A DNA stretch of 64,000 nucleotides from the human T2T-CHM13v2.0 reference genome, Homo sapiens (GCF_009914755.1 NC_060926.1); one strand, 5' to 3'. Counted from the stretch's first letter, positions 16,660 to 20,760 are shown. Notes: generated by a model not told the origin, from the letters alone. A program made the numbers and translations.

Positions 16660-17365
16660 GGCCTAAATTCTTGCAGAGAAAATTATTCCCACTTTTAGAA
16701 CTCACCTTGAACTTCACAATGACTGGAGAACCCACTTTACCAGTCTTTTAATAAAGCAGGTACGTTCAGTTTGGCCAATTTTACAGCATTTCCATTGTGC
16801 CTACTATCCAGTCTTCTGGCTCAGTAGAGCAAACAAATGGAACTATTAAAATACAGTTGGCCAAATTTATGGAAACCATATACCTTCCTTGGCCTAGAGT
16901 TCTTCCTTTGATATTAAATTTTAGAGCCACTCCCTTTAGAGCTCAGAAACTTTTAGCTTTTGAAATAATCACAGGCTCTCCTATATACTTCACTCCCTCT
17001 ATTTTGACTCTCAGTTAACAGCAAAGAGACATACTTCAGTATTGCAAAGACATTATTAAAGTGATGGATAAAAATCATACTTTGGTAGAACAGTCTTCCC
17101 ACAGTACTCTCCTGGGAGACAAGGACCTACAGTACCGTGATCTGTAACCTAGTGACTTTGTCTACTAAAAAAGGCACCTACATAAGGATTCTCTCAAACC
17201 ACATTGGAAGGGCCCATATTCGGTCCTTTTCACCAGTCCCTATGCTATCAGACTCAAAGACATTGACTCTTGGATTTACATCTCTTTTTTAAAAATGGTC
17301 CCTACTTCTGACTGAAGCAACTCTCCAACAGGTGATTTAAGACTAAAATTTACCTGGAATTGAAG
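16660..17365 (+). pseudogene. Decayed ERV1 (gamma-like) pol, integrase region
   Basis: Translates across frameshifts to ILAEKIIPTF..HNDWRTHFT..HCAYYP/SSGSVEQTNGTIK..LPWPRVLPL..RATPF..FEIITG; GPY/F motif PHWKGPYSVLFTSP..IDSWI near 17200-17280. Confidence 0.85.
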
Positions 17366-18242
17366 CAGATGATGTCTACAGTAGATCCCTATTTCAGGAT
17401 GCCTAGATCAGGTCACTGTATTCTTTCCCTTTTATTATTGATCTCTTCTTATATGCCTTTATTTTCCTGGAAAGACAATGCTCTAATTTGCACTTTCCAA
17501 TCTATTACAAGGAGGCGGCATTACTGACTGTTGGATTTGTTACCAAAAACCTTGATCTGTCATGATATAAGTAGACCTTTAGTCTACCCCATAACAGATT
17601 TTGTTAATGTTCCCAATGTAACTGTGGTTCCAATTTTGTATCCAGTCCTTTGTAAAAAGTCAAACTTTTGGACCCAGATATTGAGATTCCTGGCTTCACC
17701 CTAACAGTACCAGCAGTCTACAAAAAAGACTTTGGAATTAGACTAAGATTGTGAAAGTAAAGGTATGGTATTAAGATTCAAGAGAAAAACAATTTGACAG
17801 ATTACAAAAACATTGATGATCCTGGTCTTCTAATTACTGATAACCTCAAACAATGTAATAACTCAATAATAGAACCTTGGATAAATACCACTGACATCTC
17901 CCTATGAGTAACAATTAATACACAAGGTACTCCACATAGAATTAACTGTTATGTTTCATCAAAATACATTTTTATTTATGGAGGATTTAACAGTCAATCA
18001 TAAGCATGGACAACATCATGTCTCAACAAATGGAAAATAAAATGCCAGTGTGGTTTAAGATATTTCCGGATTCAACACAAATTAACAAAATCTGAACATT
18101 GGTTGGTACCTTTTAACTTAACACCATTAAAAGATATACCTTACTGGGAGACAGAAATCCAGCGGGATAGGCCTCAGCTGTTTAGATACTTTTTCTCTTG
18201 GATTGCAGTTAACCACTTAAAAACAACGATCAGAAATTTATC

Positions 18243-20000
18243 TTTTTTTTTTTTTTTTTTTTTTTTTTAGGTCAGAGTTGCTTTATTACTACTCTGTAGA
18301 GGCAAATATGGGATAAAGCTCTCTTTTTCAGTATCAGTGTAATCTTTGCAAAAATAGAATTTAAAATACTGTATTAGACCACTCCTAAGACACTATAACA
18401 ATATTTTGAGGCAGTGATTAAAATTACATACAGAAGTTAGTAGCTGGTACAGTGTCACTATGAATTTTACCTGTAAATGATAGTATGGACTCATTTCCTT
18501 TGCTGAGTGATTTTTGTTGTTAGAAAAAAATTCTAGGCCGCTTATTTGGCAGTCTCTCTTACCCAGATGAATTCTTTTTTTTTTTTTTTTTAGTATTTAT
18601 TGATCATTCTTGGGTGTTTCTCGAGGAGGGGGATTTGGCAGGGTCATAGGACAATAGTGGAGGGAAGGTCAGCAGATAAACAAGTGAACAAGGGTCTCTG
18701 GTTTTCCTAGAAGGAGGACCCTGTGGCCTTCCGCAGTGTTTGTGTCCCTGGGTACTTGAGATTAGGGAGTGGTGATGACTCTTAACGAGCATGCTGCCTT
18801 CAAGCATCTGTTTAACAAAGCAAATCTTGTACCGCCCTTAATCCGTTTAACCCTGAGTGGACACAGCACATGTTTCAGAGAGCACGGGGTTGGGCGTAAG
18901 GTTATAGATTAACAGCATCCCAAGGCAGAAGAATTTTTCTTAGTACAGAACAAAATGGAATCTCCTATGTCTACTTCTTTCTACACAGACACAGCAACAA
19001 TCTGATTTGTCTATCTTTTCCCCACATTTCCCCCTTTTCTATTCGACAAAACCGCCATCGTCATCATGGCCTGTTCTCAATGAGCTGTTGGGTACACCTC
19101 CCAGACGGGGTGGCGGCCGGGCAGAGGGGCTCCTCACTTCCCAGAAGGGGCGGCCGGGCAGAGGCGCCCCCCACCTCCCTGATGGGGCGGCTGGCCAGGC
19201 GGGGGCTGCCCCCCACCTCCCCCGGACGGGGCAGCTGCCGGGCGGAGACGCTCCTCACTTCCTAGACTGGGCGGCTGCCGGGCGGAGGGGCTCCTCACTT
19301 CCCAGACAGGGTGGCTGCCGGGAGGAGGGGCTCCTCACTTCTTAGAGGGGGCGGCTGCCGGGCAGAGGTGCTCCTCACATCCCAGACGGGACGGCGGGAC
19401 AGAGGCGCTCCCCACATCTCAGAGGATGGGCAGCCGGGCAGAGACACTCCTCACTTCCTAGACGGGATGACGGCCGGGAAGAGGCGCTCCTCACTTCCCA
19501 GACTGGGCATCTGGGCAGAGGGGCTCCTCACATCCCAGACGATGGGCGGCCAGGCAGAGACGCTCCTCACTTCCCAGACGGGGTGGCGGCCGGGCAGAGG
19601 CTGCAATCTCAGCACTTTGGGAGGCCAAGGCAGGCAGCTGGGAGGTGGAGGTTGTAGCGAGCCGAGATCACGCCACTGCACTCCAGCCTGGGCAACATTG
19701 AGCACTGAGTGAGCGAGACTCCATCTGCAATCCCGGCACCTCAGGAGGCTGAGGCTGGCAGATCACTTGCGGTTAGGAGCTGGAGACCAGCCCGGCCAAT
19801 ACAGCGAAACCCGTCTCCACCAAAAAAATACGAAAACCAGTCAGGCGTGGCGGCGCACGCCTGCGATCCCAGGTACTCGGCAGGCTGAGGCAGGAGAATC
19901 AGGCAGGGAGGTTGCAGTGAGCCAAGATGGCAGTACAGTCCAGCTTCGGCTCGGCATCAGAGGGAGACCATGGGGAGAGGGAGAGGCAGAGGGAGCATGA
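18243..20000 (-). mobile_element. SVA (older, B/C-like) plus 3'-transduced segment
   Basis: Hexamer remnant about 19971-19995, Alu-like about 19601-19970, VNTR about 19096-19600, SINE-R 18592-19095, poly-A 18575-18591, unique DNA 18269-18574, second poly-A 18243-18268; TSD atcagaaatttatc at 18229-18242 and 20001-20014. Confidence 0.96.
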
Positions 20001-20384
20001 ATCAGAAATTTATCCTTAAAACTTGGGTCTATAGCAGATTCCATACCTAAGGCTATTGTAGCTCAATAAACTTTCTTAGAATCTCTTGCTAAAGTGGCAT
20101 TGGATAACAGGATTGCCTGGATTAGTTATTAGCTGAGAAGGTGGTGGTTGTATAATTGCTAACACTGCTTGCTATGCATGTATGAATTCCTCTGGGAAAG
20201 TAGAAACACAATTATACAAGATAAAAGAAAACCCAAGCTAGCTGGCTCCAACAAATCTCACCAGATACATCGGAACTTTTTGATCTGTTCAGTTGGTTGC
20301 CTTAAAATTTAAGTTCATAATCTAGGACTATTCAAACTGGATTTATTGTATTGTCACTAATGACTTTTTGCATTTTCATATTAA

Positions 20385-20386
<2 letters not shown>

Positions 20387-20432
<46 letters not shown>
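20387..20432. repeat. Poly-T tract (46 nt)
   Basis: Pure T run inside the env remnant. Confidence 0.95.
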
Positions 20433-20434
<2 letters not shown>

Positions 20435-20760
20435 CTGACCATTCTTTGTAAAGCCAGCACTCCCAACAAGATAATGTTAGCCCAGTGTCTTGAGATGATT
20501 GCTAATACCTATGGGTCTAATACAGTGAAACTCAATGTTGAACTCCAGGCAAAGCTGCAATGAGAAAGATTTTCCTTTTGGCCTCTCTTTTGCTAAATGT
20601 GGCCCAGGTCCCTGACATGGACTCTCATACCTAACCCCCAAAAGTAGGACAGAGGAAACTCGGACAGGTTCAGACCCTGCAGTGAGGGACAATTACGCCT
20701 AACCTCAGAATAGTTAATCAGTGACATTTTGAGAGAAAGATCTTGATCAAAATGGGGAAA

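What the first reader, a model, noticed from the sequence alone, without database searches (positions are those of the whole stretch)
18229..20014. SVA-mediated 3' transduction: 306 bp of foreign DNA inserted into an ERV env
Seen: one perfect 14-bp TSD (atcagaaatttatc, 18229-18242 and 20001-20014) brackets the SVA, its own poly-A (18575-18591), a unique 306-bp segment (18269-18574) and a second poly-A (18243-18268). The unique segment has its own minus-strand AATAAA (18282-18287), 13 nt before the second tail. Removing the whole insert restores the env TM reading TTIRNLSLKLG. Known: read-through past the weak SINE-R poly-A signal produces SVA 3' transductions. Inference: the 306 bp tags a source SVA elsewhere and possibly sibling copies.
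Basis: partly seen in the sequence, partly recalled or inferred. Interest (0 to 1): 0.8.

Follow-up and report, generated by a model that had tools for sequence, protein, structure and literature searches.

The report
SVA with 306-bp 3' transduction
A hominid SVA retrotransposon that jumped into an old, decayed endogenous retrovirus carried 306 bases copied from chromosome 5, a routine event, although the chromosome 5 site holds no SVA in this genome.

Summary
A perfect 14-bp target-site duplication brackets a minus-strand SVA (1409 bp), its A17 tail, 306 bp of non-SVA DNA and an A26 tail. The 306 bp has exactly one other match in this genome: chr5:77,943,532-77,943,837, with 302 of 306 bases identical and the same sense as the SVA. 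On chr5 the sequence runs on past the AATAAA with no poly-A, so chr5 is the parent. That AATAAA is the first canonical signal downstream of the junction.

Four of five paralogous ERV copies are continuous across the insertion point and hold a single copy of the 14-mer. One paralog scores as Env TM (Pfam TLV_coat).

One prediction failed. No SVA lies at the chr5 parent site or within 20 kb upstream of it, and no sibling copies exist in this assembly. The source was most likely never fixed, or was lost. The chr5 junction is an L1-endonuclease-like site (TT|AGAA), which favours a real former insertion there over a template-switch chimera.

This is a textbook kind of event: 159 of 543 polymorphic SVAs carry a 3' transduction. 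Interest is low.

The parts
18229..18242 (.). Target-site duplication, the copy next to the outer poly-A
   Evidence: Exact 14-mer, found only twice in the window. 0 of 100 shuffles reach two matches.
18243..18268 (-). Outer (second) poly-A tail, A26, added after the transduced segment
   Evidence: TRF: period 1, 26 copies, 100% matches. The chr5 parent has no A run at this point.
18269..18574 (-). 306-bp 3' transduced segment, copied from chr5:77,943,532-77,943,837 (CHM13)
   Evidence: Exactly one other genomic match, full length, 4 mismatches in 306. GC is 34%, against 45-72% in the SVA parts.
18282..18287 (-). AATAAA that ended the read-through transcript
   Evidence: The only AATAAA or ATTAAA in the 400 nt downstream of the chr5 junction. 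Sense offset 288, with 13 nt before the tail.
18575..18591 (-). Inner poly-A, A17: the SVA's own tail, read through
   Evidence: Sequence. It sits directly after the SVA's AATAAATACT end.
18592..19094 (-). SINE-R part of the SVA, with its own AATAAA at 18596-18601
   Evidence: 1920 first-look candidates in the genome. 40 were scored, and the 39 non-self matches are 96-97% identical over the full length. By eye it is the same sequence as the 3' part of annotated SVAs printed in Table S2 of PMC12593883.
19095..19601 (-). VNTR of the SVA
   Evidence: TRF: period 40, 12.9 copies, 74% matches. GC 72%.
19602..19971 (-). Alu-like part of the SVA
   Evidence: All 24 BLAST HSPs between the SVA and 33 kb of chr5 fall in sense positions 100-411 and hit ordinary Alus at 75-100% identity.
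19972..19995 (-). Short CCCTCT-like hexamer run at the SVA 5' end
   Evidence: Sequence read on the minus strand. Annotated full-length SVAs in Table S2 of PMC12593883 start the same way, with G then CTCCCTCT.
19996..20000 (-). Five bases (TCATG in sense) between the TSD and the hexamers. TCAT equals bases 5-8 of the transduced segment.
   Evidence: The chance of TCAT falling within a 20-nt window is 6-10%, so this is only weakly suggestive of a source TSD (A)GAATTCAT.
20001..20014 (.). Target-site duplication, the copy next to the SVA 5' end
17148..17297 (+). ERV pol, integrase C-terminal domain (context of the target)
   Evidence: Pfam MLVIN_C, E=2.1e-11, 43.8 bits against a cut-off of 29.2. 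Frame read with X at stops.
20015..20380 (+). ERV env TM region, decayed by stops and frame changes, immediately after the insertion
   Evidence: 76% DNA identity to the chr4 paralog L008. The matching stretch of L008 scores TLV_coat at E=2.6e-7, profile positions 447-535 of 560. The window's own frames give no Pfam env hit.

Best explanation
This is a single L1-mediated retrotransposition of a read-through SVA transcript.

1. A source SVA once sat on chr5, on the + strand, directly upstream of CHM13 position 77,943,532.
2. RNA polymerase ran past the SVA's own AATAAA and genomic A-tail, and on through 306 nt of flank.
3. The transcript was cleaved 13 nt after the first downstream AATAAA and polyadenylated.
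4. L1 ORF2p nicked the target in the env TM region of an old gamma-type ERV on chr2. It reverse-transcribed the whole RNA (tail, flank, inner A17, full SVA), and integration produced a 14-bp target-site duplication.
5. The source copy is absent from this assembly. It was either never fixed or was lost.

Shown here: the anatomy, the unique chr5 parent, the direction of copying, the single TSD, the continuity of ERV paralogs across the site, and the absence of an SVA at the parent.

Inferred: the former existence of the chr5 source, and the L1 machinery.
For: - TSD: exact 14-mer, 2 hits in the window, and 0 of 100 shuffles reach that.
- There are two A-tracts with a unique segment between them. 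This is the stated signature of a 3' transduction in PMC4859970 (passage).
- The segment has one other genomic match, full length, 302 of 306 identical, in the SVA's sense.
- The parent continues without poly-A. Homology stops exactly at both A-tracts.
- The AATAAA used is the only canonical signal in the 400 nt after the junction.
- The chr5 junction reads TT|AGAA, one mismatch from the L1 endonuclease target TT|AAAA. Only 579 of 30,300 hexamers (1.9%) in the surrounding 30.3 kb match that well, or 3.4% when either of two registers is allowed.
- No internal TSD flanks the SVA alone.
- In 4 of 5 ERV paralogs the two flanks abut with a 14-bp overlap.
- Base rate: 127 of 543 polymorphic SVAs carry only a 3' TD and 32 carry both kinds. 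The median 3' TD is 258 bp. [quoted passage not shown]
Against: - No SVA lies at the chr5 junction. No VNTR or SINE-R similarity lies in the 20 kb upstream or 10 kb downstream.
- There are no sibling copies. The 306 bp, the 5' end 31-mer and the tail/TD junction 27-mer are each unique, and 0 of 5 near-matches to the 27-mer lie next to an SVA.
- Table S2 of PMC12593883 lists no non-reference SVA on chr5 between 63.7 and 79.1 Mb, and no listed TD origin is near 77 Mb.
- The chr2 insertion site itself is a poor L1 endonuclease match: AG|GATA, 4 mismatches.
- An inner A-tract would also arise if reverse transcriptase switched onto the poly-A tail of an SVA RNA.
- Whether a sense-strand mRNA normally ends at the chr5 site was not tested.
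Confidence: 0.87

Rival explanations
1. Template-switch chimera. L1 reverse transcriptase began on an unrelated polyadenylated chr5 transcript, copied its last 306 nt, then jumped to the poly-A tail of a separate SVA RNA and copied that. In this case no SVA ever sat on chr5.
For: No SVA is at or near the chr5 parent in this assembly. A template switch between an mRNA and an SVA RNA has been proposed for SVA-CKS1BP (PMC12593883, passages and the figure legend). The structure (SVA, A-run, 5'-truncated 3' end of another RNA, A-run, one TSD) is compatible.
Against: The 5' boundary of the segment falls on an L1-endonuclease-like site in chr5, with a chance of about 2-3%. A switch point has no reason to do so. 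The published switch case was argued from the absence of a poly-A between the parts, whereas here an A17 separates them. The parent lies about 35 kb beyond the last PDEase_I-matching exon on that strand, so it is not that gene's coding 3' end. Read-through TDs are far commoner: 159 of 543 SVAs, against one proposed switch, in that study.
Confidence: 0.09
2. Two nested insertions. A 306-bp retrocopy of a chr5 transcript inserted first, with the 14-bp TSD. An SVA later landed exactly at its 5' edge.
For: The bases before the SVA (…GATTCAT) resemble the bases after its A17 (GAATTCAT). These could be read as a damaged second TSD.
Against: The two are not an exact repeat, so a 4-nt loss would be needed. 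The SVA would have to hit the exact first base of a 306-bp retrocopy. No second clean TSD exists.
Confidence: 0.02
3. Not a retrotransposition. The 306 bp is part of the ERV, or came by segmental duplication or an assembly artefact.
For: None found.
Against: ERV paralogs are continuous across the point, in 4 of 5. The segment's ends coincide with A-tracts, and it ends after an AATAAA. The TSD is perfect.
Confidence: 0.01

Closest known systems
SVA 3' transductions as catalogued in polymorphic human SVAs (Kirby et al. 2025, PMC12593883)
   Same: The layout is the same: SVA, inner A-tract, unique flank ending after a downstream poly-A signal, outer A-tract, one TSD. The 306-bp length is close to their 3' TD median of 258 bp and mean of 347 bp. 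The A26 outer tail equals their median tail for 3'-TD SVAs, 26 bp. A source that cannot be found is also a known outcome, seen in 16% of cases.
   Different: This copy is in the reference assembly and is older: 1.3% divergence from its parent, with nearest SVA relatives only 96-97% identical. It is a singleton with no transduction group.
L1 3' transduction (described in the Hancks and Kazazian 2016 review, PMC4859970)
   Same: The mechanism and signature are the same: read-through of a weak internal poly-A signal, two homopolymer stretches, and the source's 3' TSD carried at the start of the transduced piece (passage).
   Different: The carrier is the non-autonomous SVA, mobilised in trans.
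SVA-CKS1BP template-switch chimera (PMC12593883)
   Same: An SVA joined at its 3' side to the 5'-truncated end of another polyadenylated RNA, inside one TSD.
   Different: That case has no poly-A between the parts and derives from a spliced mRNA. Here an A17 separates the parts, the segment is unspliced genomic DNA, and its start coincides with an endonuclease-like site.
SVA-mediated transduction of AMAC1 and the genome-wide list of Xing et al. 2006 (recalled; I saw only the reference-list entry, and the paper is not held)
   Same: Reference-genome SVAs that carry 3' flanks to new sites.
   Different: No gene or exon is carried here. I could not check whether this locus is in their list.

Membership tests
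SVA retrotransposon | 5' CCCTCT hexamer run | tested here: met
   A short run (about 24 nt) at 19972-19995, read on the minus strand. The start is the same as in annotated SVAs in Table S2 of PMC12593883.
SVA retrotransposon | Alu-like region | tested here: met
   Sense positions 100-411 hit ordinary Alus at 75-100% identity. All 24 HSPs fall there.
SVA retrotransposon | GC-rich VNTR | tested here: met
   19095-19601: period 40, 12.9 copies, 72% GC.
SVA retrotransposon | SINE-R part ending in AATAAA and poly-A | tested here: met
   High-copy 503-bp part: 1920 candidates, and the 39 scored non-self matches are 96-97% identical. AATAAA at 18596-18601, then A17. Its HERV-K origin was not tested.
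SVA retrotransposon | L1-type integration: TSD and an endonuclease-like target | tested here: inconclusive
   The 14-bp TSD is perfect. The target hexamer, however, is AG|GATA, 4 mismatches from TT|AAAA.
Retrotransposon 3' transduction | Two A-tracts with non-element sequence between them, all inside one TSD | tested here: met
   The criterion is as worded in PMC4859970.
Retrotransposon 3' transduction | The transduced piece maps to a unique parent locus that continues without poly-A and ends after a poly-A signal | tested here: met
   One other match, 302 of 306 identical. The parent runs on. The first AATAAA is at offset 288.
Retrotransposon 3' transduction | Corroborating, not defining: a source element present directly upstream of the parent sequence | tested here: not met
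   No SVA is at the junction or within 20 kb upstream in this assembly. In PMC12593883, TD origins are still assigned when the source is missing.
Retrotransposon 3' transduction | The parent junction looks like a former L1 endonuclease insertion site (source TSD at the start of the TD) | tested here: met
   TT|AGAA, 1 mismatch. 1.9% of local hexamers match as well. The source TSD itself cannot be delimited without the source.
Gamma-type retroviral Env (Pfam TLV_coat), as the target | Match to the TLV_coat profile | tested here: inconclusive
   The window's own three frames on each side give no env hit at E<=1. The only PDB hit of the 34-aa TM piece is syncytin-1 at E=2.1. Of 9 frames from 3 paralogs, 1 (L008 frame 3) scores TLV_coat at E=2.6e-7, above the cut-off, at the stretch homologous to window 20015-20380.

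The most novel reading that the evidence does not exclude
The composite is the only surviving trace in this genome of an SVA master copy on chr5 that was active several million years ago and never became fixed. Its position (to within 1 nt), its strand and possibly its short TSD ((A)GAATTCAT) can be read from the offspring. That source may still exist at the orthologous chr5 site in another great ape, or on rare human haplotypes. If so, this would be a datable case of lineage sorting of an active SVA.
Probability: 0.3. Interest if true: 0.3.

Novelty: new member of a known kind. Interest (0 to 1): 0.2.

Why it matters
It matters little beyond annotation. The result links a reference SVA on chr2 to a parent site on chr5 and shows that an SVA was once active there. 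It also gives a clean example of a transduction whose source is missing from a complete (T2T) assembly. Such cases put a lower bound on how many source elements were lost. No gene or exon was moved. The target is a long-dead ERV inside an lncRNA intron.

Tried and rejected
- Pfam on the window's own env frames gave no env family, only MLVIN_C upstream. The PDB sequence search gave only a non-significant syncytin-1 hit. The env claim therefore rests on a paralog.
- Sibling searches found nothing. The 306 bp has 2 matches including itself. The 5' end 31-mer matches only itself at up to 2 mismatches. The tail/TD 27-mer has 6 other hits at 2 mismatches against 3 for the reversed control. 5 of those 6 were examined, and 0 of 5 lie next to SINE-R; all are Alu or other T-runs.
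- Splicing of the segment onto the SVA was rejected. The AG just upstream of the chr5 junction is itself included in the copy or ambiguous with it, so it cannot be an acceptor.
- The TCAT match at the 5' end was considered as proof of the source TSD. It was kept only as a weak hint, with a chance of 6-10%.
- Literature by gene name gave nothing relevant: SVA+transduction+WDR41, SVA+retrotransposon+LINC01317 (0 papers) and SVA+transduction+PDE8B. In those hits 'SVA' means something else.
- Xing 2006 and Damert 2009 are not held. Whether this locus is already listed there is unknown.
- The SVA subfamily could not be assigned, because no repeat consensus library is available.

Full report
**Observation**

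- The 14-mer ATCAGAAATTTATC lies at 18229-18242 and 20001-20014 and nowhere else in the 64-kb window, even with one mismatch allowed. Shuffles expect 0.08 matches, and 0 of 100 reach two.
- Between the two copies, on the + strand, lie in order: T26 (18243-18268, 100% pure by TRF), 306 bp of AT-rich sequence (18269-18574, 34% GC), T17 (18575-18591), and 1409 bp of SVA (18592-20000).

**SVA anatomy**

Read on the minus strand, the 1409 bp has the parts of an SVA as listed in the review PMC4859970 (passage).
- There is a short CCCTCT-like run at the 5' end.
- The Alu-like part is the only part that cross-hits ordinary Alus. All 24 HSPs fall in sense positions 100-411.
- The VNTR at 19095-19601 has period 40, 12.9 copies and 72% GC.
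- The 503-bp 3' part has 1920 first-look candidates in the genome. 40 were scored, and the 39 non-self matches are 96-97% identical over the full length.
- The element ends in AATAAATACT plus A17.
- By eye, the 5' and 3' ends match SVA sequences printed in Table S2 of PMC12593883.
- I could not assign a subfamily, because no consensus library is available.

**Origin of the 306 bp**

A whole-genome search of the window's own assembly gives two matches: the segment itself and chr5:77,943,532-77,943,837. The chr5 match is full length and in the same sense as the SVA.
- The two differ at 4 of 306 positions, one of them at a CpG in chr5.
- On chr5 the sequence is continuous with its flanks. There is no A-run before it or after it, and homology to the window stops exactly at the two A-tracts. 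Chr5 is therefore the parent and the window holds the copy.
- The AATAAA at sense offset 288 is the only AATAAA or ATTAAA in the 400 nt downstream of the junction, and the copy ends 13 nt after it.

This is the pattern expected when transcription runs past the SVA's own signal to the next usable one.

**The source**

In this assembly it does not.
- The bases upstream of the chr5 junction are unrelated.
- A BLAST of the SVA against 20 kb upstream and 10 kb downstream finds only Alu cross-hits. Nothing matches the VNTR or SINE-R.
- The junction on chr5 reads TT|AGAA, one mismatch from the L1 endonuclease target TT|AAAA (consensus recalled). Only 579 of 30,300 hexamers (1.9%) on that strand in the surrounding 30.3 kb match as well, or 3.4% if either of two registers is allowed. 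A former L1-mediated insertion at exactly that point would explain this. A random template-switch point would not.
- The four bases TCAT between the TSD and the SVA's G-CTCCCTCT start equal bases 5-8 of the transduced piece. This would fit a short source TSD (A)GAATTCAT and transcription starting inside its upstream copy. The chance of such a match is 6-10%, so I count it only as a hint.

In the curated set of 543 non-reference SVAs from 35 genomes:
- No insertion lies on chr5 between 63.7 and 79.1 Mb (GRCh38).
- No listed TD origin on chr5 is near 77 Mb. I saw 72 of the 78 'chr5' rows, and the unseen ones sit in a sorted block at 134-151 Mb.
- Numbers beginning 773-776 or 779 occur only on other chromosomes.

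**Siblings**

None exist in this assembly.
- The 306 bp has no third match.
- The 31-mer at the 5' end is unique at up to 2 mismatches.
- The 27-mer spanning the inner tail and the first bases of the TD has 6 other near-matches, against 3 for the reversed control. I examined 5 of the 6, and 0 of 5 lie next to SINE-R.

**The target**

An MLV-type integrase C-terminal domain lies at about 17148-17297 (E=2.1e-11, above the cut-off).
- The window's own env frames, read with X at stops, give no Pfam env hit.
- The 34-aa TM-like piece finds only syncytin-1, at a non-significant E=2.1.
- The right flank (20015-20380) has 18 other matches in the genome at 68-76% identity, so this is an old, low-copy ERV.
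- I scanned three frames of 3 of the 5 fetched paralogs. 1 of the 9 frames (L008, chr4) scores TLV_coat at E=2.6e-7, 30.2 bits against a cut-off of 22.5. The match covers profile positions 447-535 of 560, which is the TM part, exactly over the homologous stretch. The other 8 frames score nothing.
- In 4 of 5 paralogs (L008, L009, L010, L012) the window's left and right flanks align to adjoining sequence with a 14-bp overlap. The paralogs therefore hold a single copy of the duplicated 14-mer and no insert. L011 has its own interruption there and is uninformative.

This stands in for the empty-site check that I could not run on other primates. The env is broken by several stops and frame changes on both sides of the insert.

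**Age**

- 4 differences in 306 give a JC distance of 0.0132.
- With recalled rates of 0.5-1.2e-9 per site per year, the split from the parent is about 5.5-13 My. The Poisson range is very wide, 1.5-33 My.
- The nearest SVA relatives are only 96-97% identical.

The copy is therefore unlikely to be a recent human-specific insertion, but this is not shown.

**Rivals**

- Template-switch chimera. Reverse transcription would start on a chr5 transcript and jump to an SVA RNA. This explains the missing source and has one published SVA precedent. That precedent was argued from the lack of a poly-A between the parts, whereas here an A17 separates them. The boundary also falls on an endonuclease-like site. 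The parent lies about 35 kb beyond the last PDEase_I-matching exon on that strand (that this gene is PDE8B and the next is WDR41 is my recall). I give this rival 0.09.
- Two nested insertions. This would need an SVA to land on the first base of a 306-bp retrocopy and to lose part of its own TSD. I give it 0.02.
- ERV-derived sequence or an artefact. This is contradicted.

**Comparison and verdict**

This is an SVA 3' transduction of ordinary size. In polymorphic SVAs the median 3' TD is 258 bp and the median outer tail is 26 bp. 127 of 543 carry a 3' TD alone and 32 carry both kinds (section 7).

In the field, 'orphan transduction' means a TD without its SVA. That is not the case here, where the missing element is the source. 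I found no print mention of this locus by gene name. The two catalogues of reference-genome SVA transductions are not held, so it may already be listed there.

The kind of event is well known, nothing of function is carried, and interest is low.

Noticed in passing
window 20387-20432: A pure run of 46 T inside the ERV just after env. The paralogous copies lack about 31 of these bases: the alignments break between window 20399 and about 20425-20431. It may be an expanded T-run or a poly-A-only insertion on the minus strand.
   Followed up: partly
window about 16700-20600, with L008-L012: The host element is an old, low-copy gamma-type ERV. The search gave 19 matches genome-wide including the window itself, at 68-76% identity to the window's env flank. 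It carries an MLVIN_C domain and an env full of stops and frame changes. The family name was not determined.
   Followed up: partly
window 18229-18242 / 20015-20024: The SVA's own insertion site is a poor L1 endonuclease target: AG|GATA in sense, 4 mismatches from TT|AAAA. A TT|AAGG lies 3 nt upstream, so the nick may have been offset.
   Followed up: partly
window 18518-19019: The RefSeq 'enhancer' feature in the hub's table spans the last 57 bp of the transduced segment, the inner A17 and most of SINE-R. The annotated element is therefore SVA-derived.
   Followed up: no
L011 (chr18 paralog) about 1010-1490: This ERV paralog has its own interruption of roughly 480 bp in env, 65 bases upstream of the point that the SVA hit in the window. 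Its nature was not examined.
   Followed up: no
G000:C5:77895507-77908504 (+): Exons matching the PDEase_I catalytic domain lie 35-48 kb upstream of the chr5 parent site on the same strand. The closest paralog is on C15. By recall this is PDE8B, with WDR41 next on the opposite strand.
   Followed up: partly
L002 1130-1470 (chr5, just upstream of the parent segment): The DNA directly upstream of the parent segment looks like a DNA-transposon remnant, mariner/Tigger-like by recall. It is not an SVA.
   Followed up: no
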